Below the pieces are notes generated by a model, which saw nothing but the letters and a program-made list of their open reading frames with translations, did no database searches and was not told the DNA's origin. Of a stretch of 64,000 bases of DNA, positions 6,513 through 59,696 are shown in pieces. The translations under genes were made by a program, and so were the position numbers. The stretch lies in the NCBI GenBank assembly GCA_022868165.1, contig JALHYA010000010.1:375-64374 (forward strand), given 5' to 3'. Numbering within the stretch: the stretch's first letter is position 1; each line of letters opens with the position of its first letter. The DNA comes from Patescibacteria group bacterium (lineage in GTDB: Bacteria > Patescibacteriota > Microgenomatia > UBA8517).

Positions 6513-7042
6513 CTTAAGGTGACTGTTGCGCTTTGAACGAGATTTTGTTCGTTTTTGACCTTCACCGTTACTCTGTAAATGTAGTTATACGAGTTTTCTA
6601 CTTTCCAAGTTCCTTTCCATTCCCCGTCGGTAGGAGTCCCGGATGATAATTGCAGGGGATAGGTGGTATCTTTGTAGTCGTCCGTGTGAAGAACAACTTC
6701 GACTCCCTTAATAGGACTTGTGTAGTTTGCCTTGACGATTATGGATTGGTTTGAACCCACTTCTGGATCTTCCGGGTCAAGTATCACCTCTGAAATTGTC
6801 GGAAGGCCTTGTACTCCTCCGCTAGTCCTATATAGCTGGGTTCCGTGGCCGATCGGGGGTGGGGTAGTGGTATAGGCGGACCAGATATTTTGTATAGGAG
6901 TTGGCGTGGGAAAGAGATTGGCGAGCTTGCCCGTGCGTAGCATATAGAAATAGACGCCCCCCAAAACCGCGGCGATAATGGCAACGATGATGAATATCCA
7001 GAAAATTAAAGGCGGCCGCTTTGTAGGCAGGTTGTTGTCCAT
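6509..7042 (-). CDS. Membrane-anchored protein: N-terminal TM helix plus an extracytoplasmic beta-rich domain.
   Basis: 177-aa ORF. Hydrophobic segment LIFWIFIIVAIIAAVLGGVYFYML. Its TGA stop overlaps the downstream ATG (ATGA), giving translational coupling to the partial giant gene. Confidence 0.6.
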   Translation of the reverse strand: MDNNLPTKRPPLIFWIFIIVAIIAAVLGGVYFYMLRTGKLANLFPTPTPIQNIWSAYTTTPPPIGHGTQLYRTSGGVQGLPTISEVILDPEDPEVGSNQSIIVKANYTSPIKGVEVVLHTDDYKDTTYPLQLSSGTPTDGEWKGTWKVENSYNYIYRVTVKVKNEQNLVQSATVTLR

Positions 7043-7112: not shown

Positions 7113-7572
7113 TTAATCTACAAATCCGACAAATCTGCAAATCTACAAATCAATTGCAAATGTTAGAATTAATAAATGAATAAATATTCAAATACGGATA
7201 AAGATATTCACGCACGAATTTATAAATTTACAATAGAATGCTTTTGGGAAGTGGTAAGAAAGATTCCCAAATCTACAGAAAATATTCCGATTATAAGCCA
7301 GGTTTCTTCTTCTTTGACCTCTATCGGAGCTAATGATCAAGAGGCCGATGCTGCAAACTCGAAGAAGGATTTTATTGCAAAATATATGATTGTTAAGAAA
7401 GAAACTAAGGAGACTAAATATTGGCTTAGCTTTATTAAAGATTCTGCTCTAATTAAAGAGAATATTATTCAGCCCCACATAGACGAATGCCAGGAAATTC
7501 TTCTAATAGTAAGTAAAATTATCGAAAATACGAGGCGCTAATTTCACCATTAAACCATTTATTTGTAGATTA
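7113..7572. repeat. Cassette of about 460 bp bounded by perfect 12-bp inverted repeats, TAATCTACAAAT (7113-7124, plus a second direct copy ~7139-7150) and ATTTGTAGATTA (7561-7572). It encloses the four-helix-bundle gene.
   Basis: Direct reading of the sequence. The right repeat overlaps the arsR stop codon. Confidence 0.45.
7176..7541 (+). CDS. Four-helix-bundle protein (TIGR02436 family, formerly '23S rRNA intervening-sequence protein').
   Basis: 121 aa. 'SSLTSIGANDQEADAANSKKDFIAKYMIVKKETKETKYWLSFIKDSALI' matches the family core (SIGANIAEG...SKKDFI...ETEYWL). It is the only plus-strand gene inside a minus-strand operon. Confidence 0.7.
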   Translation: MNKYSNTDKDIHARIYKFTIECFWEVVRKIPKSTENIPIISQVSSSLTSIGANDQEADAANSKKDFIAKYMIVKKETKETKYWLSFIKDSALIKENIIQPHIDECQEILLIVSKIIENTRR

Positions 7573-7869
7573 GATGATGCCTTTAGCTCTGAGAGCTTCA
7601 ATAACATTGCAAGGTTCAACAATTCCGGGGTCAATGCATTTGTAAAATATCTTTTGGCCCTCTCGTCTGTGAGTAACAAGCTTGTTTAGCCTAAGGAGAG
7701 CCAGATGTTGTGAGAGATTGGCCTTGCGGATTCCTACTTCTTTTGCAATATCGTCAACCGAGCGCTCGCGGTCCTTAATACAATTCAGTACTTCCAACCG
7801 TTTGCCATTGGAAAGCACCTTATATATATCCGCATACATTTCATACATCTGTTTCGTCTGTTTGGTCAT
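7570..7869 (-). CDS. ArsR/SmtB-family transcriptional regulator. Likely start is the internal Met; the track ORF extends to 7908.
   Basis: 'GKRLEVLNCIKDRERSVDDIAKEVGIRKANLSQHLALLRLNKLVTHRREGQKIFY' is the winged-HTH ArsR signature. Confidence 0.7.
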   Translation of the reverse strand: MTKQTKQMYEMYADIYKVLSNGKRLEVLNCIKDRERSVDDIAKEVGIRKANLSQHLALLRLNKLVTHRREGQKIFYKCIDPGIVEPCNVIEALRAKGII

Positions 7870-7968
7870 TTGAAACCATATTAAAGAACTGCAAGAAAGC
7901 CGTGTCAAGTGGTATTTTAGCTTCGAGCTTATATTATTAGAAATTTTTGGGGTACGATGAAATTTCGG

Positions 7969-10900
7969 TTACTGCTTCACATCTATCACCCACCAATTGA
8001 AGGTCACATCAACATTAATTGGATTGGAAAAGCCCACGGTAAAGTAGCCCGCCCCCTTACTTTTTACATAAAGAACATTGTTGAGCGTAGAGGATGTTGG
8101 TGTTACATATACTAATGTATAGTCTGATATAGAAGGATTCTTTATGGTAATCTCCGAGACTCCTGCGTTGATTATTGCCTGTCCCGCGGTTGCGTTAGTT
8201 GTTATTGTCCCATTGATGTCAGCGGAGGCAGTTGCCGCTTGTACAGCCAAGATAAACTTATCGGCGGAAACGCTGTTAAATGTAGCCGAGCCGGAGGCGT
8301 CGATGGAAGCGGCCACGGGATTGTTGATAGACCGAACGGTCAGGCCGGAAGATTCGACTACGCCTGCAACATAGAGATTTCCTTCAATTTGAACGTCTCC
8401 GTTTGTTAAAACTTTGACTTTGCCGGCCATAATTTCGACAGGAGCCATTGCTAAAGATTGCAAAGAAAGAGGAGCGCTTAAGGAGTTTACAGTATTCAGT
8501 ATTCCGTATTGGGTATTTTGGGATTGAAAAACCAGGTCGGTACCGACAGAGATAGAAGTAGAAACAGAAAGCGAGTTTATCGCTGCCTGGTCTGTCACGA
8601 AGAGATTTTGGATATTAGCAATTGCCGACGACCCCGTCGCGGTGTTAGCGTTCCAAGTTGCGGCTTGGGCCAGAAGGTTTTGGTCTTGCTCGACTTGATG
8701 CAGGAGATTTTGGATATCATCGAGCGTGGTTGATTTAATATCATCGGCGTATAAAGTGCCGGCAATACTGGCACTACTTGTAACTTGTAACTTGTCACTA
8801 GTAACTTGCCCAGAGAAGCTGGCGTTCCCGGCAGTATCCACCGATGCCACTGCGCTTCCCGAAGCATTTTGTATTACCAATTGACCGGAGTCGGTACCTG
8901 CCCCTCCGATTTGTACGGCTACATCCGTCTGGTCAGGGAGCGGTGATATCAAACGGGTTCGAACTGTATCAATATCTGCAAGTGGGGAGATAATTTTATT
9001 AGCTGTTAGCAAGTTTGAGGTTACTTCCTGAACTTGAATAGCTCCAGCCAGAATATTTCCAGCTATCAGATTTCCGAAAGCACCCAACTCGTCGATTATT
9101 TGTCCGGCTTTTGTCCATATACTGTATACAATATTTTGTATACCGTATGCCTGCTGAGATACAATTTCAAAATCTGCTAAAGAAGGAATTACCGGCGGTT
9201 TAACATCCCCGTTTGGATTAACAGTCAAATTTTCATCCTTGATATCAAAACCGGTTGCGCTCGGGTTATCGTTGAGATTTGTCCAGGTCGTATAGTCAAA
9301 TCGTGGGGCGGTGAGCCTATATGAAACTGTTGTTGGCCTGGCAGTATATATAGATAGCAAGTAGTTTCGAGTATCGACATCGTACCAAGCCCTCGTATTG
9401 CCTGCGGGGGAGAGGAGAACAACCATTTTGCCCATGTTATTTTTAAGATTTGTGGTTTTTGAAAATAGCCACAAATCCGAGCCGTTCTGTGCGTCTTTGA
9501 AGTCAATTGAATGACGATATCCGACACCCGGCACAAATTCGTCTGTCGAAACATTTCCGGTAGTTTCCTCTTTGACTCCTGTCATTCCGGAAAGATAAGT
9601 AGCGTAGCGCGTGCCGCCGATATTATAGACAGGGTCAATAGTTCCTATATCAACTTTGCCGGTTCCACCGCCGATCGTAAGCATAGTTCCGGAGCCGGTT
9701 GCTGTTATGTTTCCGTTATTTGCAATTGTGAATTTGGTGCTGCCCGAAAACGAGGCTGTAAATATATCTCCGCCGGCTTGCTGATCGACAATTAATGCTG
9801 CTTGCCCGACGTTTCCAGTGTTAATAGGATTTGTAACCATCCAATTTCCGGCCGTCAGCTCGTGGGGAGTTGTTTTTTCATTGGCCGGAAAAATAATCGT
9901 TCCTGTGCCGGTATTGTCGGCTATTTGGGAAATCCCACCGCCGACTCCATCCGCACTATCGAGAAAAAGAGTGCCTCTGAATTCGGTATCGCCTGAGAAT
10001 ATTACCCAGTCTGTAGTGGAACCCCCAAAATGGTCGGGGATTGCACTGCCGAATCTAGAATAAGCCTGACTGGTGGCGGGGATTGTGCCCGGGGTCCAAG
10101 CGGCGCCAATCTGCAAAAATCCGGTTGCCGTTAAATCTCCGGCTTTGGAGACTACCATTTTTGTTACGGAAGAAGCAGAAGCGGTTAATATGTCTTGGCT
10201 TTCGGGCTGATTGAAAATTGCCAGAGCCTTGCCGGTAAGCGCACCGTCGTTGGTAACATAAAGTTTGGAAATAATGTCTGCCGTTGTCGTTGTGCCGATT
10301 CCGACTTGATAATCCGCATTGGTAGTATAAATAAAAGGATTAGATAGAGTCCAACCTGTTGCAGCACCTGCAGAAATACAATCTACCCAAGAGCCGCCCT
10401 GGTAGCAGCGGAATTTGGGCGTTCCCGATGAATTGTAGTAAACTGCTCCTGCCGTTCCTGCAGGGTCTCCCGCATCATTTTTAATATCCAAAGCTAGAAG
10501 GTCCGGATTGCTCGAACCCGCTCCGTCGCCGATTTGAATATGCCCCGTGTCTGCTCCGAATGACTCTAGAAAGATGTTGCCGGTTGTAAGGCCGCCTAGG
10601 GTTAAGCTTTGGTTGGCTGTTGTGGCCAGGTTTCCGTCGGCCGTTAGATAAGTTGCTCCTGCGGCCCCGGCAGAGATAGAAGCTGTCGGTGGGCTTGCTA
10701 AATCTACGTTTATGAAGGCAAACTTGGCCGAATCCGTAGAATTCCCGCCGATTAGAACATCTTCGGTAAGATTTTTGGGATAAATTACTCCGCCGTTGGT
10801 GGGAGCGGTTCCTTCCGCCCATAGACCGCTTGTAGTACAGCCGGCCCCCGAAGTATCGCAGACCTGGTTTGCGCCTTGATAAATCAATTGACCATGTATT

Positions 10901-13900
10901 TCTTTCCATTCAAGCCCGGAAAGTCCTAAATCCGTTACGTCGGTAGTAGAGGGGGTAACTGAACCCCCGGAAAGGGCATTAAGAGGATTTAGGATGATAT
11001 TTCCGGTTGTACTGCCTCCAATAGTCAAGTCATTCATAAGAGTGCCCTGAATGCTTCTGGCGCCGCCATAGAAGGTCAGGTTGCCCGATACGGTGGCATT
11101 GCCTGCAACAGCAAGTTTTTCTACCGGAGAAGTTGTCCCGATGCCGACGCCGCCGCTTTGATTGATATTTAATATGTCATCTGTACCGTAATGACCGAGA
11201 GATAAATTGTTTAGGTAAGCTGTGGCATTAGGAGTATAGGCCATATAACCTGCGGAATTGGCAGCAATAGATTTACCAATCCATTGCGTTAGTCGATTAC
11301 CATTAGCAAGGGCAGTTTCAAAGACACCCATCGCTCGATGGTTGACATCAGTTGAAACTACAACTAATGGATTTCCCGGCGTCGCCGTCCCGATGCCGAC
11401 GTTGCCGGCGTTGGTGATGACGAATCTTGGAGTTCCGGCTGCTGAGGCCGTAAAGATATCTTGGGATTCGGTCTGGTTAAATATGGCCAGGGCTTTGCCG
11501 GTTGCCGAATAATCGTTTGTGACATAAAGCCTTGAGGTGGCAGCGGTAACGGTGGTTGAGCCGATTCCTACATAACCCGAAGCGTTAACATACATATCTT
11601 CACCGTCATTACCCTCGTCAAAAATAATCGTTTCGCCGGACCCCAAAGTCACAAATTTCAGGTTTACCGTGCTTGGAGTCATGATGGATAGCGTGGGGCT
11701 GGTGTAATCGTAGGTGAGACGGGTAGTGCCGTCAAAGGAAATGTGAGTTTGATTAGCAGAGCCTATCGTGAATCCGAAACAGTCGGCACCACCTGAACGG
11801 GTTGAGTTCCCACAGATATATTTAATGCCATCGGTAGCATAGGCAGAAAGAACCTCAATCATATCAGTATATGTTTCTCTCTCAACACTTACAGAAAATT
11901 CTCCGGCGGTATCCGCTCCGGCAGTTACATTTCTTAAGATAAAGCCTGCTCTTCCGGCCTCAACCAAACTGCTCGCATTATCCTCAAGGTAGGATGATGT
12001 GTAAGAACCGATGTTGGTGGCCGCAGTACCGCCGCTTGTGGAGCGAGTAATTCTGGCAAGCTCTATCTGTGTATTTGTTGAGGCATCGTCTTTTACGATA
12101 TGGAAACCCGCAAGCGGGGAGGCCGTACCAATACCCACACGGTTGTTAAGCGCATCAATCGAAAGGGTATTGGAATCGAAGTTAAGGGCATTGGCAGCAT
12201 TATTCAGGGTTACTCCTACTATTTGGGTAGAAAGGTCAATGGTGGCAGCGTTGATGTCAACAATACCGCTGCCGTTAAGGGGAGAAAGAGTGATATTTCC
12301 GGTCGATGTACCTCCTATGGTCAGATTTGCCATATTGGTTGTAGCCAGATTTCCTTCTCCAGTTAGGTAGGTAGCCACATTGGCAGTAGTGCCCGAAATA
12401 GATGCTGTTGGAGAATTTGTGGAGTCAACATTCATAAATGCGAACTTGGCCGTGTCGGTGGCCGTTCCGCCGATTAGTACATCAACAGTAGAATTCATTG
12501 GGTAGAGGATTCCATTTGCATCATCCTGCGTCCAGAAACTGCTGCCGCCTCCGCCTGTTCCGCAAGCTCCCCAGCTACCGGCTTGTTTACAACGCATTTC
12601 GCCTGAATCGGAGTTGTAATACATTGCACCATCGGGTGCGGAAACAGGGTCACCGGCAGTATTTTTTATATCTAAGGCTAAAAGGTCAGGAGTCCCCGAG
12701 CCCGCACCGTTTCCTATTTGAATAAGACCTGTTGTTGAGGTACCGAACGCTTGAAGGTAAATATTGCCTGTATCAACTCCTCCTAAAGTGAGGCTTTGGT
12801 TGGCGGTTGTTGCGAGATTGCCATCAGCGGTAAGAAAGGTTGCACCGGCCGCTCCCGCCGAAACAGAAGCGGTTGGAGTCCCTGTGCCCACCATATTTAT
12901 AAATGCAAATTTTGCGGAATCGGTCGAAGTCCCCCCCAATAAGACATCAACCGTCGAATTTTTGGGATACAGAATTCCATTTACATCGTCTTGATTCCAA
13001 AGATCGGTTGCGCCCCCGAGACAATTTCCTGAAGTGTCGCAAACCTGATTGTTGCTTTGGTAGATTGTCTTTCCCCAGATATTCCTGAATTCCAAGGACG
13101 CGGATGTGCCCAAATCGGTAACATCAGTTGTATTTGGCTTGACAGCTCCACCGGCTATGGCATTGAGCGGATTGACAACTATATCTCCGGTTGTATCTCC
13201 GCCGATAGTTAGAATAGCCATTAGAGTTGCCCGAATATTTCTTGCGCCTCCGTAGAAAGTCAGGTTGCCCGAAACAGTGGCATTGCCGGCCACATCCAGC
13301 TTTTCTACGGGAGACGTCGTTCCCACGCCTACGTTTCCACCAGGCATAAGAGCCAGGTTCTGCGAAGCCGCGGTAATTATTTGATTCGGCCCTGTGCCGG
13401 CGAAGGTAATTCCGGCTCCAATTCCAGTTAGATTTATGGCGGCAGTATTTGCATAGGAGTTTGTAAGTTGGTTGCTCATTGAGAGCGTTGTCACGCCCGA
13501 TACCGCCCCGGCTGTAGTGACATTTAGAGCAGTCGAGGTTACGGCAAATGTTCCCGTTGCGTTGCCAATGGTAGTTGTGGCTCCGGCGCCGGAAGATAGA
13601 GTGGTATTACCACTAGAGTCTAGGGTAGTGAAAGCGCCCGTCGAGCGAATAGTTGCTCCGATTGCGGTTGAGTTAATGCCCGTAGCTGTTGTATTAAAGT
13701 TGCCGGCAGTAAAGAGGATATCGTTTGCTCCAAAGGAAACGGATGAGGCTCCCAATCCGGATAGAGTCAGAGCTCCAGACGTTCCGGTTAAGTTCAAAGC
13801 TCCGGTAGTTAACGTCAGGCCGTTACTGGCTGTAAGGGTGCTAGAGAACCTTCCTGTTCCAGTAACATCCAGTTGAGTGCTGGGTGCAGCGTTATTTATG

Positions 13901-16900
13901 CCGACTTGGCCGGCACTGTCAATATATATCCTACTGGTAAGAAATGAATCACCACCGACGGAGCCTTGGACATTAAAGCTACCACCGTTGTAGATATTCA
14001 AGAATGTTTGCGGAGCAGTTGTGGTGGTCTCGGCTCCAAGTGCAATATTGCCCGAGATTGAAGCAGTGGGATTGCCGGAATCGACATTTATAAATGCGAA
14101 CTTGGCCGTGTCGGTGGCAGTTCCGCCTATTAATACATCAACAGTTGAATTTTTGGGATACAAGATTCCCAGGGAATCATTTTGATTCCAATATCCTGTT
14201 GAAGCATTACAGTTTCCGCTTGCATCACAGACGGCATTACCACTTTGAAGCATTGCCTGGGCATAAAAATTGCGCCATTCTAGAGAGGCTGTTCCGAGGT
14301 CGGTTACATCTGTAGCTCCGGGTGTAACCGAACCACCGTCTACGGCATTTAAAGGATTAATTGTGATGTTTCCGGTTGTATCGCCCCCGATAGTTAAGTC
14401 ATTCATAAGAGTGCCCTGAATGCTTCTGGCGCCACCATAGAAGGTTAGATTGCCGGAAACGGTGGCATTTCCGGCTACATCAAGCATCTCCAGGGGAGTA
14501 GTAGTCCCAATTCCCAAGTTTCCGCTTGCGTCAATTCTGGCTTTTTCCGAAGAGGAGATATAAAACCGTATTGTGCCTCCTTGCACTAGGGTTCTTCCAG
14601 CTGAATCACCAAATGTTTGAATTCCTTGTTCGTTGGCGCTTATGCCATTTTGGCTGGACCAAACCAGCGCCTCGACTGTGCTTCCGGGATCGGTGACGTA
14701 CCCGGTGACCCAAGCAGGATCGTTGGGATCGGACGAAAGCGTTCCGATATTCCCATTTCCTGAAGAATCGGAGGTAGAAGTCCCTGTTCCCTCATCGAAA
14801 TGCCAAAGGGCTTTTGTATTGGCATCCGGAGAAAGTTTGGTTGTTTGAGGGGTAAAATTGGCGGTGTTACGAACAACGTTGGACATCTCAATCTCGTCAA
14901 TTTTCCCGTCAAAGTTGTCTTGAGGTGGCCAGTCACCGCCGTCCAGTCCGATTCGCATAAGTCCGTTAAAATAACTCGGCGTGCCAGGATCCCCTTGGAA
15001 CGGTTGGGATTCTATATTTCCATTGATAGCGAAATAAATGGTGTTTGTACCTGTATCTCTTGATACTTGGACGTGGGTCCATGTTCCTAAAGAAACTGTT
15101 CCCGTAGAGTTCATGAATCCAGCGGCATCCGACCAGAACCCAAAAGCTAGTTGACGGGAGGGGTTGATTCCAAAGTACCACTTTCTGGCGTAATCTGTTC
15201 CTTTCTTGTCGATTATGACTCGTGTAGATGCCGCGGTGGTGTCCAAATAAACCCAAGCTCTGATCGTCCAATCACTACCCATAAGGCGGTTAGTGGCGGA
15301 ATCGGGAACTGTAACTCCATCGTCCCCATCAAACTCTAGCGCATAGGGGTCGGACCCGGGTTTTGAAACCAGATTATACCGTGCTGCGTTGTTTGATGTT
15401 GTGGTTCTTGTAACTCTTGTGTATAGGCCGTCTCCGGAGGTAGTTAGCCTTATTTCTGGAGTTACCTTGGAAATTTCTAAATCAGATGCTGGGGCAGAAG
15501 TACCTATACCCACCCTAGAATTGGTGGTATCAAAAGTTGCAAATGCAGAGCCTGAATTATTAAGCACGCTTACATTTCCAGTAGTAGTTCCACCCAAAGA
15601 AAGAGTCTGTTTGGCTGTTGTGGCCAAGGTTCCATCAGCGGATAGATAAGTTGCGCCTGCAGCACCCGCAGAAATAGAAGCTGTGGGTGTACCTGAACCA
15701 ATTACATTTATAAATGCGAACTTGGCTGTGTCTGTGGCCGTTCCTCCGATAAGTACGTCCACAGTTGAGTTTTTGGGGTATATTGTTCCGTTTGTCTGGT
15801 TCCAAACATCATTTGCCCCAGCAAAACAGTTACCACTGACATCACAAACCTGATTACTGTTTTGATATAGCGTCTGGCCGTAAACGTTTCTCCAAGCAAG
15901 ACTCGAAATGCCCAGGTCGGTTACATCGGTTGCGCCGGGGGTAACCGAGCCTTCTGCGACGCCATTAAGAGGCGAAAGGATAATGCCTCCTGTAGAATCT
16001 CCTCCGATTGTTAAATTTCGATTGAGCGTGGTTTGAATTACTCCTGCACTATTAAGAGTTAGATTGCCTGCTATTGATGCAGTGGGTGTGCCAGAATCAA
16101 CATTGATAAACGCGAATTTGGCGGAAGAGGAAGAGGTGCCGCCTATCAACAAATCAACGGTAGAATTTTTAGGATTTAGAACCCCGTTTGCCTGGCCCCA
16201 CCAGTTTATTGCTGTAGCCGCAGTTGCAAAAGCCTGCCAAATTGTTCCATCCGAGAAATAAACCTGATTATCTGTTGAATTATATATAACCGAGCCTGTG
16301 CCGATAGCAGTTGGCAGAGCAACAAATCTTCCCAGCCTAATTTGGTCATTAAAAATTGCTGTTCCGTTTTTAACATATAAAGCTGCGCCTTCCCTTGGAG
16401 CGTTATAGCGGTTTAAGGTGAGGGTTGAGTATGTAGACATTGGTTTGTCGCGCTCATCAAGTGTCAAAGTTAATAGGTCGGCCAGAGCCGAACCGGTTTG
16501 AGTAATTGAGGCGAAATTGCCAGGACTTTGGGTTATTGTAAAATTTCCCGAAGTCTGGCTATAGCCTGTGACGTTGGAAAGTGCGCCGCCGGATGAGAGT
16601 CTTTGAGTTCCTCCCGTTGAAAGATTCCCGCCGATACCCGTATTGCCGAGCGCATCAACACTAAAACGGGTGATTGGTTGTGAGCCGCTTTGAAGCCTTA
16701 TGAGGTCATAACCAGTTGCTCCGTTAGCCACAATGCCATAAAAAAGCGAGCCGGAAGTCAAATTGGGTGCCTGGGCATTTAGGAAATTTTGGCCTGTGCC
16801 TTCAAAAAGAAAATGTGCATATCCGAAACCGTCTGGATTAATTTCAATATTTCCGTCCGAGCCGGTCGGAGTAGAAAGAGTCACTGTTTGGCCTTCAACC

Positions 16901-17745
16901 AAAAGATTTCCCTGTTTGGCGCGAATTGCGGGGGCCTGTGATGCCAAAAGAAGAGAACCGTCGTCGGCAATTACGGGAATTGTGCCCGGACCTGCCCCGA
17001 TTTCCGGGTTGGCGGGAGTGTAGCCTTGGAGATTGGAAGCGGAATTGGCGCTTGAAACCGGAATCCTGTCCTTGATTTCGGTTCCTCCTATGGTTGCGCC
17101 AAGATAAAGCTTATCGTTTCCGAAAAATACATTAGTTGGAACACTATCTAAAGCTATCGTAATATCACCATTTGTATCAGGAGTTTCTTGTTTTGTACCC
17201 GAAGTCCAGAGTGCGGTAGGGTCGTCGGGAGATTTATAAAGTTTGAAAGTTATGCTTTGGGCTCCAAGCGAGGCCGAACCGCTTGCGTCTTTGAGTGTCA
17301 TTTTGGCAAAAATTGTCCAGGGAGAAAGAAGTGTGGAAGTCGATGGTGCTTCGGACGTAGAGCCAGTTGTGGGTTGGCCGGGGCCACCGGTAGGCTGGGG
17401 AAGCTGAGTTACTCTGTTTTCGCTTGCGGGTGTAAACAGGAAGGGTATCGGAAGCTGAAGTTTTCGGGCAAGAAGAAACATAAGAACCAGTGATAAGGCC
17501 AATACGCCAAAACCGATGATTGTTTTTACTCCAGGCTTGCGGCGTTTGGGAGGTTCGAACGCTTCGCTTAAAGGTTGTGTTTGAACTAAGGGATTTTCTT
17601 TTATATGCCCCTTGTTGTGTGCCCAGCCGAAAAATTTATTCAGGCTGGCCATCTTGCGCTTGGCCGTAGTAAAACTTGTAGTTTTTGCAAGCTGGCCTTG
17701 ATATTGGGCTATTAAATCCGGTGATATGTAGGGTAGGTTAGGCAT
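7969..17745 (-). CDS. Giant (3258 aa) membrane-anchored surface protein. Short cytoplasmic N-terminus resembling the second half of an integrase SAM-like domain, one TM helix, a Thr/Pro/Gly-rich stalk, a LamG-like domain, at least five 330-aa repeats and a tail-fibre-like C-terminal region.
   Basis: Single uninterrupted ORF. TM TIIGFGVLALSLVLMFLLARKL. LamG-like 'WTIRAWVYLD...IYFAINGN'. Repeat unit 'NLTIGGDTTGNI..NPLN...VTPG.TDVTDLG.S.L.WRN.Y.Q.....N.VCD.SGNC....YPKNSTVDVLIGGTATDTAKFAFINV' recurs. Matching DNA repeats (ttataaatgcgaacttggc...) lie near 10695, 12430, 12895, 14085, 15705 and 16095. Confidence 0.85.
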   Translation of the reverse strand: MPNLPYISPDLIAQYQGQLAKTTSFTTAKRKMASLNKFFGWAHNKGHIKENPLVQTQPLSEAFEPPKRRKPGVKTIIGFGVLALSLVLMFLLARKLQLPIPFLFTPASENRVTQLPQPTGGPGQPTTGSTSEAPSTSTLLSPWTIFAKMTLKDASGSASLGAQSITFKLYKSPDDPTALWTSGTKQETPDTNGDITIALDSVPTNVFFGNDKLYLGATIGGTEIKDRIPVSSANSASNLQGYTPANPEIGAGPGTIPVIADDGSLLLASQAPAIRAKQGNLLVEGQTVTLSTPTGSDGNIEINPDGFGYAHFLFEGTGQNFLNAQAPNLTSGSLFYGIVANGATGYDLIRLQSGSQPITRFSVDALGNTGIGGNLSTGGTQRLSSGGALSNVTGYSQTSGNFTITQSPGNFASITQTGSALADLLTLTLDERDKPMSTYSTLTLNRYNAPREGAALYVKNGTAIFNDQIRLGRFVALPTAIGTGSVIYNSTDNQVYFSDGTIWQAFATAATAINWWGQANGVLNPKNSTVDLLIGGTSSSSAKFAFINVDSGTPTASIAGNLTLNSAGVIQTTLNRNLTIGGDSTGGIILSPLNGVAEGSVTPGATDVTDLGISSLAWRNVYGQTLYQNSNQVCDVSGNCFAGANDVWNQTNGTIYPKNSTVDVLIGGTATDTAKFAFINVIGSGTPTASISAGAAGATYLSADGTLATTAKQTLSLGGTTTGNVSVLNNSGSAFATFDTTNSRVGIGTSAPASDLEISKVTPEIRLTTSGDGLYTRVTRTTTSNNAARYNLVSKPGSDPYALEFDGDDGVTVPDSATNRLMGSDWTIRAWVYLDTTAASTRVIIDKKGTDYARKWYFGINPSRQLAFGFWSDAAGFMNSTGTVSLGTWTHVQVSRDTGTNTIYFAINGNIESQPFQGDPGTPSYFNGLMRIGLDGGDWPPQDNFDGKIDEIEMSNVVRNTANFTPQTTKLSPDANTKALWHFDEGTGTSTSDSSGNGNIGTLSSDPNDPAWVTGYVTDPGSTVEALVWSSQNGISANEQGIQTFGDSAGRTLVQGGTIRFYISSSEKARIDASGNLGIGTTTPLEMLDVAGNATVSGNLTFYGGARSIQGTLMNDLTIGGDTTGNITINPLNAVDGGSVTPGATDVTDLGTASLEWRNFYAQAMLQSGNAVCDASGNCNASTGYWNQNDSLGILYPKNSTVDVLIGGTATDTAKFAFINVDSGNPTASISGNIALGAETTTTAPQTFLNIYNGGSFNVQGSVGGDSFLTSRIYIDSAGQVGINNAAPSTQLDVTGTGRFSSTLTASNGLTLTTGALNLTGTSGALTLSGLGASSVSFGANDILFTAGNFNTTATGINSTAIGATIRSTGAFTTLDSSGNTTLSSGAGATTTIGNATGTFAVTSTALNVTTAGAVSGVTTLSMSNQLTNSYANTAAINLTGIGAGITFAGTGPNQIITAASQNLALMPGGNVGVGTTSPVEKLDVAGNATVSGNLTFYGGARNIRATLMAILTIGGDTTGDIVVNPLNAIAGGAVKPNTTDVTDLGTSASLEFRNIWGKTIYQSNNQVCDTSGNCLGGATDLWNQDDVNGILYPKNSTVDVLLGGTSTDSAKFAFINMVGTGTPTASVSAGAAGATFLTADGNLATTANQSLTLGGVDTGNIYLQAFGTSTTGLIQIGNGAGSGTPDLLALDIKNTAGDPVSAPDGAMYYNSDSGEMRCKQAGSWGACGTGGGGSSFWTQDDANGILYPMNSTVDVLIGGTATDTAKFAFMNVDSTNSPTASISGTTANVATYLTGEGNLATTNMANLTIGGTSTGNITLSPLNGSGIVDINAATIDLSTQIVGVTLNNAANALNFDSNTLSIDALNNRVGIGTASPLAGFHIVKDDASTNTQIELARITRSTSGGTAATNIGSYTSSYLEDNASSLVEAGRAGFILRNVTAGADTAGEFSVSVERETYTDMIEVLSAYATDGIKYICGNSTRSGGADCFGFTIGSANQTHISFDGTTRLTYDYTSPTLSIMTPSTVNLKFVTLGSGETIIFDEGNDGEDMYVNASGYVGIGSTTVTAATSRLYVTNDYSATGKALAIFNQTESQDIFTASAAGTPRFVITNAGNVGIGTATPGNPLVVVSTDVNHRAMGVFETALANGNRLTQWIGKSIAANSAGYMAYTPNATAYLNNLSLGHYGTDDILNINQSGGVGIGTTSPVEKLAVAGNATVSGNLTFYGGARSIQGTLMNDLTIGGSTTGNIILNPLNALSGGSVTPSTTDVTDLGLSGLEWKEIHGQLIYQGANQVCDTSGAGCTTSGLWAEGTAPTNGGVIYPKNLTEDVLIGGNSTDSAKFAFINVDLASPPTASISAGAAGATYLTADGNLATTANQSLTLGGLTTGNIFLESFGADTGHIQIGDGAGSSNPDLLALDIKNDAGDPAGTAGAVYYNSSGTPKFRCYQGGSWVDCISAGAATGWTLSNPFIYTTNADYQVGIGTTTTADIISKLYVTNDGALTGKALAIFNQPESQDILTASASSVTKMVVSKAGDLTATGFLQIGAAWTPGTIPATSQAYSRFGSAIPDHFGGSTTDWVIFSGDTEFRGTLFLDSADGVGGGISQIADNTGTGTIIFPANEKTTPHELTAGNWMVTNPINTGNVGQAALIVDQQAGGDIFTASFSGSTKFTIANNGNITATGSGTMLTIGGGTGKVDIGTIDPVYNIGGTRYATYLSGMTGVKEETTGNVSTDEFVPGVGYRHSIDFKDAQNGSDLWLFSKTTNLKNNMGKMVVLLSPAGNTRAWYDVDTRNYLLSIYTARPTTVSYRLTAPRFDYTTWTNLNDNPSATGFDIKDENLTVNPNGDVKPPVIPSLADFEIVSQQAYGIQNIVYSIWTKAGQIIDELGAFGNLIAGNILAGAIQVQEVTSNLLTANKIISPLADIDTVRTRLISPLPDQTDVAVQIGGAGTDSGQLVIQNASGSAVASVDTAGNASFSGQVTSDKLQVTSSASIAGTLYADDIKSTTLDDIQNLLHQVEQDQNLLAQAATWNANTATGSSAIANIQNLFVTDQAAINSLSVSTSISVGTDLVFQSQNTQYGILNTVNSLSAPLSLQSLAMAPVEIMAGKVKVLTNGDVQIEGNLYVAGVVESSGLTVRSINNPVAASIDASGSATFNSVSADKFILAVQAATASADINGTITTNATAGQAIINAGVSEITIKNPSISDYTLVYVTPTSSTLNNVLYVKSKGAGYFTVGFSNPINVDVTFNWWVIDVKQ

Positions 17746-17747
17746 GG

Positions 17748-18251
17748 CTAATGGTTAATAGCTGATGGGTGATTTTCGACCCATGAAATGAATTGTTTTA
17801 TATCGGAAAGATAGCTTTTGATAGTATTATTGGAAACCTTTTCTTGCTTTAGATATCGCTCAAATTCGTTTAATAAGGGATCGGATTCGTAAGAATCTCC
17901 GGTAATGTTAGACATTCCTTCCATAAAATCTGAATCTATAATTTGAGTGCCAACCAAAAAACGGGAGAGATTGCGCAGGGTAGAAAGGCGTCTGTTGGCC
18001 GTGAGTTTGGCAACTTTATTATCGAGAAGATATTTTTTGTATTCGCCCGCAATATTTTTGGAAAGAAAGGGAATAGATTCGGTTAAATTTTCTGCCTCCG
18101 AACCCAAAGAACGAATTCGCAAGAGAAGCCAAGCGGTAAAATGGGTGATATCCGACTTGTAAAATTTTATTGTGTTTGTGGAAACGCCTGACTCATCCAA
18201 ATGGGATAAGAACAAACTTATGATTTTATCGGCAAAACTGCTATCGTCCAT
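17748..18251 (-). CDS. Protein built from tyrosine-recombinase N-terminal (SAM-like/core-binding) domain repeats, with no catalytic domain.
   Basis: 167 aa. 'FADKIISLFLSHLDESGVSTNTIKFYKSDITHFTAWL', 'RLSTLRNLSRFLVGTQIIDSDF' and 'LLNEFERYLKQEKVSNNTIKSYLSDIKQFISWV' fit the Phage_integrase_N/SAM-like pattern. The stop is 2 nt before the start of the giant gene. Confidence 0.6.
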   Translation of the reverse strand: MDDSSFADKIISLFLSHLDESGVSTNTIKFYKSDITHFTAWLLLRIRSLGSEAENLTESIPFLSKNIAGEYKKYLLDNKVAKLTANRRLSTLRNLSRFLVGTQIIDSDFMEGMSNITGDSYESDPLLNEFERYLKQEKVSNNTIKSYLSDIKQFISWVENHPSAINH

Positions 18252-18839
18252 TTTGAGGCTAAATTATACTCGTTATACGAGTTATACCATTATTAAAGCG
18301 ATTTAGAAGCTTGTCAAGGAGCGTTTAATAGGCTAAACACAAATATACGTCTAAGTACTTTTCACTGACATCAATAGCGTATTTTCCGCATATCAAATTG
18401 CCTTAGACAATATATCAAAACATATATAAATTGATATCCGATAGTTAGGTTTTCCCGCGATATTTATATAACTCCCTGTGCCTATATATTTTACTGCGGA
18501 AATATGCGGGAATTATATATATTTGAGTTTCGATGAGGAAATAGTACCGTTTTGGGCTCAATCCGATAGCATAAAGGGGTTTTTTATGGTCGATTACTGT
18601 TTTGGCAAACCTTTCGTCCGAGTGCTATGAATTATTGTCTAATATTTTGCCCCGAATTCTTGATGATTATCGGACTTTTATTTCTTTTGTTTTTTTACTT
18701 TGTTTGTGAAGCTATTCTGTGTGAAATTCTAATTCCAATCGCAATTGCCGTCTCAATATAGCCAATAATTTCTAAAATCGCCTAGATTTATTATAATTCT
18801 TATGCGAGAATTCTGTATAATTCTCTGTATAATTCTATT

Positions 18840-21344
18840 ATGGCCAAGAAAAGCAAATATGATCATAGGTCCATAGAGGCCAAATGGCAAGAGGCTTGGG
18901 CGGGCGAGGGGATATATACTCCCGACGTAAACAAAGCCAAGAACCCTTTCTATAATCTGTGGATGTTTCCATACCCTTCTGCGGAGGGTCTTCATGCCGG
19001 GCATGCCTATGCCTCAACCGGAAGCGACATCTACGGTAGATTTATGAGAATGCAGGGAAAAGATGTTTTCCAGCCTATTGGATATGATTCTTTCGGAATC
19101 CACTCTGAAAATTACGCATTAAAAGTAGGGGAGAATCCGGAAACAATCGTACCTAAAACCAGCAAAAACTACGAAAGACAACTTAAGAGCTTGGGGCACG
19201 GCTACGATTGGACCAGGACCGTGACCACATCCGATATTGATTATTATGTTTGGACACAGTGGCTTTTTGTTCAGCTTTTTAAGGCCGGGTTGGCTTACCG
19301 CAAGGAAGCAAAAGTAAACTGGTGTCCTTCCTGTAAAACCGTGTTGGCAGACGAGCAAGTTATAAACGGAAAATGTGAGAGGTGTTCTACCGAGGTTCAA
19401 AAAAAGGACCTTGCCCAATGGTTTTTCAGGATTACGGATTATGCGGACAAGCTTCTGGCAAACCTTGAAAAAATCGATTGGCCCGGGCACATTAAGCTGT
19501 CGCAGAAAAATTGGATAGGGAAAAGCGAGGGCGAGAGCATCCGTTTTAGGCTTGTTGGCTCCTCGGAGTATATAGAAGTTTTTACAACCAGGCCGGATAC
19601 GCTTTACGGAGCCACTTTTTTGGTACTTTCGCCCCATAGCGCTTGGGTTGGGAAAGTCACAACTAAAGAAAACATGGGTAAAGTATCGGAATATGTCAAA
19701 AACCATCAGCAATCAGCAATTAACAATCAGCAATCCAAGCTTAAAACAGGAGTATTTACGGGCGGCTACACTATAAATCCGGCGACCGGGGAAGAAATCC
19801 CGATTTGGGTTTCCGATTATGTCTTGGAAGGCTACGGTTCGGGCGCGATAATGGGCGTTCCCAGCCACGACGAGAGGGATAAGGAATTTGCTTTGACACA
19901 CAAATTAGAAGTGAGACAGATTGTTCCGGATGAGGGGTTGTGGGATATAGTCGAACAAAAGGATTGGGGCCGGCGTGCGGTTAGTTTTCACTTAAGGGAT
20001 TGGCTTATCTCCCGTCAGCGCTATTGGGGACCTCCTATACCTGCGATTTACTGTCCGAGATGCGCCAAAGAAGGGAAATCGTACTTTTCGGAAGCTAAGG
20101 GGCAAATTCATGCCGACCAAAACGATTGGGAGCATACCGGCTGGTATCCTGTGGATGAAAATGAGCTTCCGGTGAAACTGCCGCACATTGAAGATTATCG
20201 TCCGGTAGGAACCGGAAAGGGTCCACTGGCCAACCATCCGGAGTTTTACGAGACTGTTTGCCCCGCCTGCGGCAGTAAAGCCATGCGTGAGACCGATGTT
20301 TCCGATACATTTCTTGATAGTTCGTGGTATTTCCTGCGTTACCCTTCGGTTGGCACAGAGTCGAAGTTAGAAGATAGAAGTTTGATGCTAGATGAGGATG
20401 TTAGAAGTGGGAAAGTCGGAAATAGGGTTTCCAACTTCAAGCTTCAAAATCCAGATTCACACATCCAACTTCCAACTTCTAGCCTTCCTTGGGATCCTGA
20501 GATCACAAGGCGATGGCTCCCGGTTGATTTGTATTTCGGAGGAGCCGAGCATGCCGTTTTGCATCTTATGTATTCCCGGTTTATGACAATGGTGCTTCAT
20601 GACATTGGAAAGGTGGACTTTGAGGAGCCTTTTCCGCGATTCTTTGCGCATGGACTCATGATTAAAGACAGCGCAAAGATGAGTAAATCCAAAGGCAATG
20701 TAGTCAATCCGGATCCGTATATCGAGAAGTTCGGAGCTGATGCACTGCGACTATATTTGATGTTCATTGGACCCATGGACGGCAGCCCCGTCTTTAGGGA
20801 TACGGGTATGGAAGGGATGAAGAGATTTGTCAATAGGCTCTGGGAGCTTTTTACAACAAAACCGGCCGAAAAAAGTAATAAAGAAGCTACTATCAAAATG
20901 CATCAAACCATAAACAAAGTGACGGAAGATATACAAAATTTCAGATATAACGTGGCCATAGCGGCAATTATGGAGTATGTAAATGTTCTTAAGGAGAATG
21001 GGGCATCGGCCGAGGCTTTAAAAAATCTTGCACTAATGCTTGCCCCGTTTGCTCCGCATATGACCGAAGAAGTTTGGCATATGATGGGCAATACATCATC
21101 GATTCATAAGGCTTCCTGGCCTCAATTTGATCCCGATTTGGCCAGAGAGAAGAGGGTGGTCGTGGTTGTACAGATTAACGGAAAACTTCGCGCAGAGCTT
21201 GAAGTAAACTCTCTGCAAGGCCAAAATCAGGAGGAAATCGAGAAACTTTCAAAATCCGATCCCAACATAGTTAAATGGTTAGAGGGGAAGAAGGTCAAAA
21301 AGGCCGTTTTCGTGCCCGGGCGATTAATTAATTTTGTAATTTAG
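18840..21344 (+). CDS. leuS: Leucyl-tRNA synthetase.
   Basis: 834 aa. 'PYPSAEGLHAGHAYASTGSDIYGRFMRM' is the HIGH-region; 'KMSKSKGNVVNP' is KMSKS. Typical LeuS architecture. Confidence 0.95.
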   Translation: MAKKSKYDHRSIEAKWQEAWAGEGIYTPDVNKAKNPFYNLWMFPYPSAEGLHAGHAYASTGSDIYGRFMRMQGKDVFQPIGYDSFGIHSENYALKVGENPETIVPKTSKNYERQLKSLGHGYDWTRTVTTSDIDYYVWTQWLFVQLFKAGLAYRKEAKVNWCPSCKTVLADEQVINGKCERCSTEVQKKDLAQWFFRITDYADKLLANLEKIDWPGHIKLSQKNWIGKSEGESIRFRLVGSSEYIEVFTTRPDTLYGATFLVLSPHSAWVGKVTTKENMGKVSEYVKNHQQSAINNQQSKLKTGVFTGGYTINPATGEEIPIWVSDYVLEGYGSGAIMGVPSHDERDKEFALTHKLEVRQIVPDEGLWDIVEQKDWGRRAVSFHLRDWLISRQRYWGPPIPAIYCPRCAKEGKSYFSEAKGQIHADQNDWEHTGWYPVDENELPVKLPHIEDYRPVGTGKGPLANHPEFYETVCPACGSKAMRETDVSDTFLDSSWYFLRYPSVGTESKLEDRSLMLDEDVRSGKVGNRVSNFKLQNPDSHIQLPTSSLPWDPEITRRWLPVDLYFGGAEHAVLHLMYSRFMTMVLHDIGKVDFEEPFPRFFAHGLMIKDSAKMSKSKGNVVNPDPYIEKFGADALRLYLMFIGPMDGSPVFRDTGMEGMKRFVNRLWELFTTKPAEKSNKEATIKMHQTINKVTEDIQNFRYNVAIAAIMEYVNVLKENGASAEALKNLALMLAPFAPHMTEEVWHMMGNTSSIHKASWPQFDPDLAREKRVVVVVQINGKLRAELEVNSLQGQNQEEIEKLSKSDPNIVKWLEGKKVKKAVFVPGRLINFVI

Positions 21345-21349
21345 CCTTA

Positions 21350-21928
21350 ATGCCTGCCTTAAATAAGCGTCAGGTAGCATTTGCCTTAGCTGGCTTAATC
21401 TTACTTTCTCTGGGGCTTCTTCAAGTCCGCAAGACAGTGCAACTATCTCCGGAGCGGGTAAGTGTCTTGGAAGCGACGACAGAGGCCCAAAAAACCCAAA
21501 CAGATATTGTCGTAGAAATTTCCGGACAAGTCGAAAAGCCCGGCGTTTATAAATTACAAAACGGGTCTCGGGTCGAGGATTTAATTGTTGCCGCGGGAGG
21601 AATTTCGGCGGAGGCCGACAGAGTTTGGTTGGATAAAACTCTAAACCGCGCGGCAAAACTTTTGGACGGACAGAAACTTTTTATCCCACCTAAAAATAGC
21701 GGGGATATCAAAGTGTATCAGCCGTCCAATGCCGTTCAGGGGAGTGGTTTGATAAATATCAACACCGCAGGGCTTTCCGACCTGGATACGCTACCGGGTA
21801 TTGGCCCTGTTTACGGCCAAAACATCATCGAACACAGACCTTACTCAAATATCGAGGAGTTGGTGTCAAAAGGGGCTCTAAAGGAGTTTGTCTTTGAAAA
21901 AATCAAAGACAAAATAACCGCTTACTAA
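21350..21928 (+). CDS. comEA: Competence protein ComEA: TM anchor, SLBB domain and C-terminal helix-hairpin-helix.
   Basis: 'INTAGLSDLDTLPGIGPVYGQNIIEHRPYSNIEEL' is the HhH motif. N-terminal hydrophobic segment. Confidence 0.8.
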   Translation: MPALNKRQVAFALAGLILLSLGLLQVRKTVQLSPERVSVLEATTEAQKTQTDIVVEISGQVEKPGVYKLQNGSRVEDLIVAAGGISAEADRVWLDKTLNRAAKLLDGQKLFIPPKNSGDIKVYQPSNAVQGSGLININTAGLSDLDTLPGIGPVYGQNIIEHRPYSNIEELVSKGALKEFVFEKIKDKITAY

Positions 21929-23616: not shown

Positions 23617-23642
23617 TTAGTAGAGTATAGTATCATCAAAAC

Positions 23643-27758: not shown

Positions 27759-27832
27759 GTCGGGGTGCCCGGACTTGTGTGCATAACCATTTCTTGCACT
27801 ATCAAGGCCGGCACAAGTTTTAAGTCGGGGTG
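27756..27832. repeat. 22-nt direct repeat TAAGTCGGGGTGCCCGGACTTG at 27756-27777 and 27811-27832. The second copy is the 3' end of tRNA-Pro; the first overlaps the ndk stop.
   Basis: Exact duplication read directly from the sequence. Confidence 0.55.
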
Positions 27833-27886: not shown

Positions 27887-27889
27887 CCA

Positions 27890-27964: not shown

Positions 27965-27965
27965 C

Positions 27966-59694: not shown

Positions 59695-59696
59695 GC

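What the first reader, a model, noticed from the sequence alone, without database searches (positions are those of the whole stretch)
7969..18251. Giant 3258-aa surface protein whose cytoplasmic N-terminus completes a tyrosine-recombinase SAM-like (core-binding) domain begun in the upstream 167-aa gene.
The 167-aa ORF (17748-18251) holds one full SAM-like core-binding domain plus the first half of a second (YLKQEKVSNNTIKSYLSDIKQFISWV). It stops, and 2 nt later the giant ORF starts with what looks like the matching second half (ISPDLIAQYQGQLAKTTSFTTAKRKMASLNKFFGWAHNKGHIKENPL). A TM helix and about 3100 extracytoplasmic residues follow. No recombinase catalytic domain is present anywhere nearby. 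A DNA-binding-type domain split across a gene boundary, and tethered to a giant adhesin-like protein, is unusual. It suggests either a recently split gene (stop plus frameshift between 17745 and 17750) or a cytoplasmic regulatory or anchoring module for the surface fibre.
Basis: partly seen in the sequence, partly recalled or inferred. Interest (0 to 1): 0.6.

Follow-up and report, generated by a model that had tools for sequence, protein, structure and literature searches.

The report
Split integrase-like head on giant fibre
A giant membrane-anchored surface fibre of a candidate-phyla-radiation (CPR) bacterium has a cytoplasmic head made of two integrase-type DNA-binding domains with no recombinase enzyme. 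In this lineage the second domain has long been cut in two between a small upstream gene and the giant gene.

Summary
ORF1 (17748-18251, minus strand, 167 aa) holds one complete XerD-type core-binding (CB, SAM-like) domain and helices A-B of a second. After TAG and 2 nt, the 3258-aa ORF starts with helices C-D, then one N-in transmembrane helix and about 3160 external residues. No recombinase catalytic domain occurs in the 64 kb.

The "recent split or frameshift" reading is refuted.
- 44 of 80 species-level CPR (Microgenomates) genomes show the same cut, and 7 more probably do.
- Each confirmed giant gene has its own ATG, 17 nt of overlap to 15 nt away, in any frame. Some junctions hold 110-577 nt inserts.
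- Both half-domains are conserved (about 50% identity). The ORF1 tail is not (19%).
- 21 other genomes carry the two-domain head and the membrane or fibre part in one ORF, and one (L007) is a re-fusion.

Best reading: an old gene fission whose products, made from one coupled operon, reassemble into a membrane-tethered, probably DNA-binding head. Reassembly and DNA binding are inferred, not shown. I found no description of this architecture, so I rate it a new variant of a known kind, of moderate interest.

The parts
18289..18317 (-). Sigma-70-like promoter TTGACA-17-AATAAT, about 38 nt upstream of the ORF1 ATG. It probably drives ORF1 and the giant gene as one operon.
   Evidence: 11 of 12 consensus matches. 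No terminator-like site in 17300-18900, and apart from one weak 9-of-12 match at the very start of ORF1, no promoter-like site on this strand inside ORF1 upstream of the giant ATG. This is a consensus match only.
17748..18251 (-). ORF1, 167 aa: a soluble protein with 1.5 core-binding (SAM-like) domains.
   Evidence: There are 54 stand-alone homologues of 158-180 aa, down to 43% identity. dN/dS is 0.16-0.18 against a 93%-identical relative.
17952..18218 (-). Complete CB (SAM-like) domain 1, ORF1 residues 12-100.
   Evidence: Phage_int_SAM_1 positions 2-80 of 83. (Xer profile positions 2-99). AlphaFold pLDDT 95-98.
17757..17876 (-). First half (helices A-B) of CB domain 2, ORF1 residues 126-165.
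   Evidence: Phage_int_SAM_4 positions 1-41 of 85. (Xer profile positions 3-41). Mean identity 0.51 across 43 split loci, against 0.19 for the nine-residue tail after it.
17743..17750 (-). Junction: TAG stop, CC, ATG start. The giant ORF is in the -1 frame. There is no slippery heptamer, and a TAA lies in the -1 frame four codons upstream of the ATG.
   Evidence: read directly from the sequence. Identical in the independent assembly L089. Close relatives L086-L088 have a rewritten ORF1 tail and a 3-nt gap.
7969..17745 (-). Giant ORF, 3258 aa: a type II (N-in) membrane-anchored fibre-like surface protein.
   Evidence: The family has 281 cluster representatives at E<=1e-3, with lengths up to 5818 aa.
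17590..17727 (-). Second half (helices C-D) of CB domain 2, giant residues 7-52.
   Evidence: Mean identity 0.48 across 43 split loci. 99-100% nucleotide identity with L086, while the ORF1 tail next to it is 53-67%. AlphaFold pLDDT 92-95 in the concatenated model.
17467..17523 (-). Single transmembrane helix, giant residues 75-93 (TIIGFGVLALSLVLMFLLA), preceded by PPKRRKPGVK.
   Evidence: Kyte-Doolittle mean 2.58. It is the only such segment. 5 K/R in the 21 residues before it and 1 after.
14863..15330 (-). Laminin_G_3 (concanavalin A-like lectin) domain in the ectodomain, residues 806-961.
   Evidence: E 4.5e-19, 69.5 bits against a cut-off of 27.6.
7972..8688 (-). Conserved C-terminal module (about residues 3020-3258) ending ...FNWWVID. 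It is shared by split and fused family members.
   Evidence: alignment of 13 complete C-termini. L024 is the exception and does not share the module. The extent is approximate.

Best explanation
The locus encodes the two-piece form of a CPR-wide family of giant surface fibres.

Family plan. The common plan, probably the older one, is a single polypeptide: two tandem XerD-type core-binding (CB, SAM-like) domains in the cytoplasm with no catalytic domain, a basic linker, one N-in transmembrane helix, a long variable ectodomain, and a conserved C-terminal module ending FNWW[IV][IV]N.

Shown. In the window's lineage (Woesebacteria and related Microgenomates) the gene is cut in the loop between helices B and C of the second CB domain. 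ORF1 carries 1.5 domains. The giant gene begins with the missing two helices. The cut is old. Both halves are under purifying selection. The two genes are always adjacent, and the giant gene has its own ATG.

Inferred. The pair is transcribed from one promoter and translated in a coupled way (2-nt gap, no Shine-Dalgarno-like sequence that I can see before the giant ATG). The ORF1 C-terminal half-domain and the giant's N-terminal half-domain then reassemble without a covalent link, probably as they are made, into a normal four-helix CB domain. This docks ORF1 on the cytoplasmic tail of the fibre.

Inferred more weakly. The reassembled head binds nucleic acid, most likely double-stranded DNA. 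It would then act as a membrane-tethered DNA-binding module that links the surface fibre to the chromosome or to gene control.
For: - Complementary halves. Three profiles place ORF1 126-165 on positions 1-41 and giant 7-52 on positions 43-99 of the same domain.
- Fused relatives. 26 of 80 loci are single ORFs and 21 of them carry both CB domains; the protein searches add P0032 and cut-off fragments such as P0074. The loop length is the same as in the split pair.
- Age and adjacency. 44 of 80 loci are split with the second half found within 600 nt, and 7 more are weaker cases. About 101 of the 150 best cluster representatives start with the half-domain at residues 1-20, against 10 with it at residues 164-183.
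- Real start codons. Every confirmed split giant starts with ATG, from 17 nt of overlap to 15 nt away, in all frames.
- Selection. The half-domains show 0.51 and 0.48 identity, against 0.19-0.24 for the tail and linker. ORF1 dN/dS is 0.16. Giant codons 1-55 carry 1 change against a 93%-identical relative, while the ORF1 tail is rewritten with indels.
- Reversibility. L007 is a re-fusion by deletion nested among split loci.
- DNA-binding hints. The reassembled domain 2 has pI 9.6 and the giant's half pI 10.0. R87 and R197 are invariant and K198 is nearly so; they lie in the NRRLS and KRK motifs of the two repeats. Structural neighbours include CB-type proteins used only for DNA binding: MrpR, Phi3T SroF bound to DNA, the ALOG domain bound to DNA, and Ndc10.
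- Neighbourhood. The gene keeps leuS-comEA-comEC next to it across very divergent lineages and in two orientations.
Against: - Non-covalent assembly was not tested. The AlphaFold model is of a covalent concatenation, which favours a joined fold.
Only 7 rows of the alignment that was used cover the second half.
- ORF1 as a whole is acidic (pI 5.8), and domain 1 is only mildly basic (pI 8.0).
- Nothing here shows DNA binding or any regulatory output.
- The neighbour-joining tree of a short domain is weak. The number and direction of fission and fusion events is therefore uncertain.
- The comEA-comEC-leuS neighbourhood may be inherited gene order rather than a functional link.
Confidence: 0.65

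Rival explanations
1. The two products do not reassemble. ORF1 is an independent soluble DNA-binding protein that uses domain 1. Its truncated second domain and the giant's N-terminal 50 residues have each taken on unrelated roles, for example a membrane-targeting or retention signal for the giant.
For: ORF1 domain 1 is complete on its own. In some lineages the two genes are separated by 110-577 nt that may hold a separate promoter. No assembly test was possible.
Against: - Both halves keep the CB-domain sequence pattern and are equally conserved.
- Adjacency holds in every locus that could be judged.
- Fused forms and a re-fusion show that the joined state works.
- Half of a four-helix bundle is unlikely to be stable alone (general knowledge of protein folding, not tested here).
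Confidence: 0.15
2. The head is a CB fold reused for protein-protein work rather than nucleic-acid binding. It could be a cytoplasmic platform that helps oligomerise, export or anchor the fibre.
Against: The closest sequence and fold matches are DNA-binding CB domains. The conserved basic motifs NRRLS and KRK are kept in both repeats. The giant's half is strongly basic.
Confidence: 0.25
3. Programmed recoding (a -1 frameshift or stop bypass) joins ORF1 and the giant into one polypeptide.
For: In the window the stop and the start are only 2 nt apart, and the giant ORF is in the -1 frame.
Against: - There is no X XXY YYZ slippery site.
- A TAA in the -1 frame leaves only two codons in which a shift could occur.
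- Orthologues have gaps from -17 to +15 nt in every frame, always with an ATG.
- Some junctions hold whole genes or 110-577 nt inserts.
Confidence: 0.03
4. Recent pseudogenisation or a sequencing or assembly error split one gene.
For: None beyond the bare appearance of a stop plus a frame change.
Against: - An independent assembly has the identical junction.
- Three further assemblies of a 93%-identical relative are also split, with a different tail.
- The split is conserved in 44 or more species-level genomes.
- Purifying selection acts on both sides.
Confidence: 0.01

Closest known systems
Core-binding (N-terminal SAM-like) domain of XerC/XerD-type tyrosine recombinases and phage integrases (Pfam PF02899, PF13495, PF13102)
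   Different: No catalytic domain in the protein or anywhere in the window. The domain is duplicated in tandem. It is tethered by a transmembrane helix to a surface protein of over 3000 residues. The second copy is divided between two genes.
CB or recombinase-fold proteins reused purely as DNA binders: SPbeta master repressor MrpR, Phi3T SroF, plant ALOG domains, yeast Ndc10
   Different: Those are soluble proteins. MrpR and SroF keep a recombinase-like C-terminal domain (my own knowledge, plus chain lengths of 317-320). None is membrane-anchored or split.
Membrane-tethered signalling proteins with a cytoplasmic N-terminal module, one transmembrane helix and an external sensor (ToxR/CadC one-component regulators; RsgI anti-sigma factors with SigI encoded just upstream)
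   Same: N-in topology with a small cytoplasmic head and a large external part. As with sigI-rsgI, a small soluble DNA-binding partner is encoded immediately upstream of, and coupled to, the membrane protein. This is an analogy from my own knowledge.
   Different: A different DNA-binding fold (not winged helix, not sigma). The ectodomain is a giant fibre rather than a compact sensor. No regulatory function is shown.
Natural gene fissions that are rescued by fragment complementation, and operon-encoded subunits that assemble during translation (for example LuxA/LuxB)
   Same: Two adjacent, coupled genes whose products must associate. Here the interface would be the hydrophobic core of one small domain.
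   Different: The cut lies inside a domain of about 85 residues rather than between domains or subunits. It has been kept across a large clade, with occasional re-fusion.

Membership tests
Tyrosine-recombinase core-binding (Phage_int_SAM) domain | Profile match above the curated threshold | tested here: met
   ORF1 scores 54.8 bits against 22.3 for PF02899 and also passes PF13495 and PF13102. The giant's N-terminus alone scores 13.9 bits, below threshold. The concatenation scores 66.5 bits over positions 1-82 of 83.
Tyrosine-recombinase core-binding (Phage_int_SAM) domain | Four-helix CB fold superimposable on solved CB domains | tested here: met
Tyrosine-recombinase core-binding (Phage_int_SAM) domain | Domain contained in one polypeptide | tested here: not met
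   The second copy is split: ORF1 covers profile positions 1-41 and the giant covers 43-99.
Tyrosine recombinase (XerC/XerD, integrase) | C-terminal catalytic domain (PF00589) with the R-K-H-R-H/W-Y active site | tested here: not met
   A profile of 22 XerC/D proteins matches only its positions 2-99 anywhere in the six-frame translation of the 64 kb. NCBIfam XerD scores 50.7 bits against a cut-off of 329.6.
Programmed -1 ribosomal frameshift | Slippery heptamer in the overlap, and a frame relation conserved among orthologues | tested here: not met
   No slippery site, and a -1 frame TAA four codons before the ATG. Gaps range from -17 to +15 nt in all frames, plus inserts.
Pseudogene or assembly artefact | Lesion private to this assembly, with relaxed selection on the pieces | tested here: not met
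   Same junction in L089. Split in L086-L088 and in 44 or more species-level genomes. dN/dS 0.16.
ToxR/CadC-type membrane-bound one-component regulator | Cytoplasmic N-terminal DNA-binding domain, one transmembrane helix, external domain | tested here: inconclusive
   The topology fits. The DNA-binding domain is not the OmpR-type winged helix that defines this family. DNA binding and regulation cannot be tested with these tools.
Diversity-generating retroelement target | Template and variable repeat pair, reverse transcriptase, Avd | tested here: not met
   No near-identical repeat pair in 1-22000. The four-helix-bundle gene of the same family at the L001 junction scores below the Avd cut-off (31.6 against 80). 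The window's own copy (7176-7541) gives no Avd match at E<=0.01. No full search for a reverse transcriptase was made.
Known structured RNA or intron at the junction (Rfam) | Match to an Rfam family at the gathering score | tested here: not met
   The window gives only six tRNAs. Twelve loci with junction inserts give no hits.

The most novel reading that the evidence does not exclude
The split CB domain works as a natural split-protein switch. ORF1, a soluble DNA-binding factor with half of a domain missing, is held at the membrane and made foldable only by complementing the cytoplasmic tail of a giant host-contact fibre. Host contact, tension or proteolysis of the fibre changes this complex and alters gene expression or DNA handling. 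A candidate target is the comEA-comEC DNA-uptake genes that stay next to this locus across CPR lineages. This would couple attachment to a host with DNA acquisition in episymbiotic bacteria.
Probability: 0.1. Interest if true: 0.85.

Novelty: new variant of a known kind. Interest (0 to 1): 0.55.

Why it matters
- CPR (Patescibacteria) bacteria depend on other cells, and how they sense or exploit attachment is poorly understood. A large family of giant surface fibres that all carry a cytoplasmic integrase-type DNA-binding head suggests a direct link between the cell surface and DNA. That idea can be tested with small recombinant fragments, without growing the organism. The family has 281 clusters at 50% identity and members of up to about 5800 residues.
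- The conserved cut through the middle of a domain of about 85 residues, with occasional re-fusion and with mobile cassettes landing at the same point, is a clean natural case of gene fission rescued by fragment complementation. This is useful for protein-evolution studies and for split-protein engineering.
- On the practical side, public sources name some of these 160-180 aa proteins "site-specific recombinase XerD" or "site-specific integrase". They have no catalytic domain, so those names are misleading.

Tried and rejected
- Paired alignment for AlphaFold. 
- Alignment of giant N-termini. Rows P0055, P0098 and P0099 aligned to helices C-D of domain 1 rather than domain 2, because the two repeats are homologous. 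I removed them.
- AlphaFold-database fold search. The library was not available.
- Recoding, recent lesion and assembly error were considered and rejected (see the rival explanations).
- Intron or known RNA at the junction. No Rfam family was found.
- Diversity-generating retroelement targeting of the giant. No template and variable repeats were found.
- Literature. Three full-text searches for this architecture found nothing relevant. One search failed on a format error. One search, on the four-helix-bundle cassettes, gave only tangential papers.
- Junction element. RNAalifold on the Blackburnbacteria-type element gave a poor alignment and only 5 pairs. Folding each sequence alone was more informative.
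- Self-BLAST of the giant protein returned no internal repeats at the protein level. DNA-level repeats were found instead.
- Zero synonymous changes in giant codons 1-55. I first saw this as a nucleotide-level constraint. I then toned it down because the relatives are mosaics with 97%-identical flanks.
Full report
**What is in the window**

On the minus strand, a 167-aa ORF (17748-18251) ends with TAG. Two bases later (CC) a 3258-aa ORF (7969-17745) starts with ATG, in the -1 frame.

Pfam places ORF1 residues 12-100 on the whole Phage_int_SAM_1 model (the protein scores 54.8 bits, cut-off 22.3). It places residues 126-165 on only the first half of the SAM-like models (positions 1-41 of 85). 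Giant residues 7-45 fall on the second half (positions 43-82 of 83), which is weak alone (E 0.066). Joining the two sequences artificially gives one match over positions 1-82 of 83.

Two independent profiles agree:
- A PHROG integrase family hits giant residues 7-68.
- A profile I built from 22 genuine XerC/D recombinases hits ORF1 at positions 2-99 and 3-41, and the giant at positions 49-99 (E 1.3e-5). It finds nothing else in the six-frame translation of all 64 kb.

So the window holds no recombinase catalytic domain.

The giant has one hydrophobic segment (residues 75-93), preceded by PPKRRKPGVK. That fits an N-in, type II anchor. The rest is rich in T, G, A, S and N. It has a Laminin_G_3 lectin domain and diverged internal repeats.

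**The split is old and maintained**

A protein search returned 54 stand-alone homologues of ORF1. All are 158-180 aa, identity goes down to 43%, and all end a few residues after the conserved W-x-E of helix B of the second domain.

I fetched 80 species-level genome loci. All are CPR bacteria, mostly Microgenomates: Woese-, Blackburn-, Gottesman-, Shapiro-, Ames- and Levybacteria, with a few Saccharimonadales and Paceibacterota. A half-domain profile and ORF tracing sorted them as follows:
- 44 are split, with the second half found at the start of the next gene. In 31 of these the giant ATG lies between 17 nt of overlap and 15 nt after the ORF1 stop. In 13 there are 110-577 nt in between.
- 7 more are probably split, with a weaker match to the second half.
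- 26 have the head and the membrane or fibre part in one ORF. Of these, 21 carry both CB domains. L062, L072, L074 and L085 have only one, and L065 was not aligned.
- 3 are cut by contig ends.

Every confirmed split giant begins with ATG. Spacing and frame vary freely (-17, -14, -11, -8, -4, -1, 0, 1, 3, 5, 6, 7, 8, 9, 10, 15 nt). This rules out programmed frameshifting as a general mechanism. In the window itself there is no slippery site, and a TAA in the -1 frame lies four codons before the ATG.

A profile of the giant's N-terminus was searched against 1.84 billion cluster representatives:
- It found 281 proteins at E<=1e-3, of which 71 are at E<=1e-30.
- Among the best 150, about 101 start with the half-domain at residues 1-20. 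Their lengths reach 5818 aa.
- Ten have the half-domain at residues 164-183, which is the fused type.

Selection acts on both pieces:
- Across 43 split loci, identity to the window is 0.51 for ORF1's half-domain and 0.48 for the giant's half-domain.
- The same measure is 0.19 for the ORF1 tail and 0.24 for the linker before the membrane helix.
- Three independent assemblies of a 93%-identical relative (L086-L088) are also split, with a 3-nt gap. Their ORF1 tail is rewritten with indels.
- In that comparison the giant's first 55 codons carry a single change, and ORF1 has dN/dS of about 0.16.
- An independent assembly (L089) is identical to the window over 4298 nt, junction included.

A recent lesion or an assembly error is excluded.

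**The joined state is the family plan, and the two states interconvert**

Fused relatives have this layout: CB domain 1, CB domain 2, a basic linker, one transmembrane helix, then the giant ectodomain. Their B-C loop is about as long as the window's ORF1 tail plus the giant's first six residues.

Split and fused members share a C-terminal module of about 200 residues ending FNWW[IV][IV]N.

L007 lies among split loci in a neighbour-joining tree. Its junction looks like a deletion that re-fused the two genes. That tree rests on a short domain and is weak, so I do not claim a number of events.

The same junction has also received other DNA:
- Four-helix-bundle (TIGR02436/PF05635) gene cassettes sit there in L001/L002, L008 and L026, and a different subtype in L055.
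- A conserved hairpin element sits there in a Blackburnbacteria-type clade.

One possible origin of the split is a cassette insertion into the loop-coding DNA. This is only an inference.

**Fold**

Domain 2 consists of helices 125-136 and 141-159 from ORF1, a lower-confidence junction loop (160-175), and helices 176-189 and 192-211 from the giant.

**How it most likely works**

Shown: a conserved two-gene arrangement in which the pieces of one domain are both kept.

Inferred: one promoter-like site lies upstream of ORF1 (TTGACA-17-AATAAT), with no terminator-like site and only one weak 9-of-12 promoter-like match at the very start of ORF1 before the giant. The 2-nt gap suggests coupled translation. 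The two halves would then reassemble into a four-helix CB domain, so that ORF1 sits on the cytoplasmic tail of the fibre.

Function is the weakest step. I favour nucleic-acid binding for these reasons:
- The closest sequence and fold relatives are DNA-binding CB domains.
- The conserved basic motifs (NRRLS in domain 1, KRK in the giant's half) are kept in both repeats.
- The reassembled domain 2 is basic, with pI 9.6.

Against this, ORF1 is acidic overall (pI 5.8), and nothing was tested directly.

One suggestive but unproven clue is gene neighbourhood. leuS-comEA-comEC-MBL lies beside the locus in the window, and parts of that block lie within 6 kb in many of the fetched loci:
- leuS is present in 35 of 57 split and 11 of 26 fused loci.
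- comEA is present in 29 of 57 split and 8 of 26 fused loci.
- Some lineages keep comEA-comEC without leuS, or in the opposite relative orientation.

This may still be inherited gene order.

**Comparison with what is known**

The domains belong to the recombinase CB (SAM-like) family by sequence and fold. The proteins are not tyrosine recombinases, because the defining catalytic domain is absent.

The topology resembles membrane-tethered regulators such as ToxR/CadC. The gene pair resembles sigI-rsgI. The DNA-binding fold differs from both, and no regulation is shown.

I found no description of this architecture in three full-text searches. Some sources label the small proteins "site-specific recombinase XerD" or "site-specific integrase".

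**Verdict**

This is a new variant of a known kind: a catalytic-domain-free tandem CB head on a giant CPR surface fibre, with a long-conserved cut through the middle of a domain. Interest is moderate (0.55). The feature is surprising in structure and evolution and easy to test with small fragments, but its function is unknown.

Noticed in passing
L035, L036, L037, L039, L041, L042, L048, L049, L054 (junction between the ORF1 stop and the giant ATG, e.g. L039:2187-2250, L036:6503-6580): A conserved hairpin element occurs once per locus, exactly at the split junction. An outer stem (GGGUGGUCGC / GCGACCACCC) shows compensatory variants. An inner A/U-rich hairpin is capped by UCU-GGGGG-AGAC. The 5' arm can lie inside the end of ORF1. 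Eight of nine sequences fold to the same plan on their own (z -3.2 to -5.8). There is no Rfam match. A -10-like GTATAGCAC follows 15-25 nt later. It could be a terminator, a processing site or a leader.
   Followed up: partly
L001:10534-10926, L008:2869-3258, L026 (about 6458-6855), L055:6409-6981: Four-helix-bundle genes (TIGR02436 / PF05635, the '23S rRNA intervening sequence protein' family, related to bAvd) sit exactly between the two half-domain genes. In L001, L008 and L026 they are flanked by imperfect inverted repeats. L055 carries a different subtype with a suffix domain, so there were at least two independent insertions at the same spot.
   Followed up: partly
window 7176-7541 (+): The window has its own four-helix-bundle (TIGR02436/PF05635) gene just downstream of the giant gene (Pfam E 2e-15). 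An ArsR-family regulator gene lies next to it at 7570-7908 (-).
   Followed up: partly
window 1-6512 (-): A second giant ORF of at least 2170 aa runs off the left end of the window. It has a classical signal peptide instead of the CB head, and carries F5/8 type C, Gly_rich_2 and two Laminin_G_3 domains. The ORF lister does not show it because it is cut by the window edge.
   Followed up: partly
window 18840-25313 (+) and loci L001-L085: leuS, comEA, comEC (Competence domain), a separate metallo-beta-lactamase gene and argS lie divergent from ORF1. Within 6 kb, leuS is kept in 35 of 57 split and 11 of 26 fused loci, and comEA in 29 of 57 and 8 of 26. L058 and L059 keep comEA-comEC without leuS. 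L072 and L074 have comEA-comEC, and L085 comEC, upstream on the same strand as the giant. This may be a functional link to DNA uptake or merely inherited gene order.
   Followed up: partly
window 21929-23616 (+): The ComEC Competence domain (21929-22798) and the metallo-beta-lactamase domain (22747-23616) are separate, overlapping ORFs here. They are also called as separate genes in L001-L003. These two domains usually lie in one ComEC protein (my own knowledge), so this may be another conserved gene fission.
   Followed up: no
L007 and L034 (both from assembly CAYITS01): One metagenome-assembled genome carries both a fused (L007) and a split (L034) member of the family, so paralogues in both states can coexist.
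   Followed up: no
window 17573-17745 against L086: The first 55 codons of the giant have no synonymous change and one non-synonymous change against a relative, while the adjacent ORF1 has dS of about 0.23. The relatives are mosaics: flanks are 97% identical and ORF1 plus the giant start about 83%. Recombination may therefore explain this as well as a nucleotide-level constraint.
   Followed up: partly
window 27825-27974 and 58784-60105 (-): Six tRNA genes lie in two clusters. No rRNA genes were found in the window.
   Followed up: no
Record titles of L007, L011, L020-L023 and many others: Many CPR genome assemblies in the species collection carry the title 'uncultured Gammaproteobacteria' or 'Pseudomonadales'. 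Their gene content and homologies are those of Microgenomates, so these look like mislabels.
   Followed up: no
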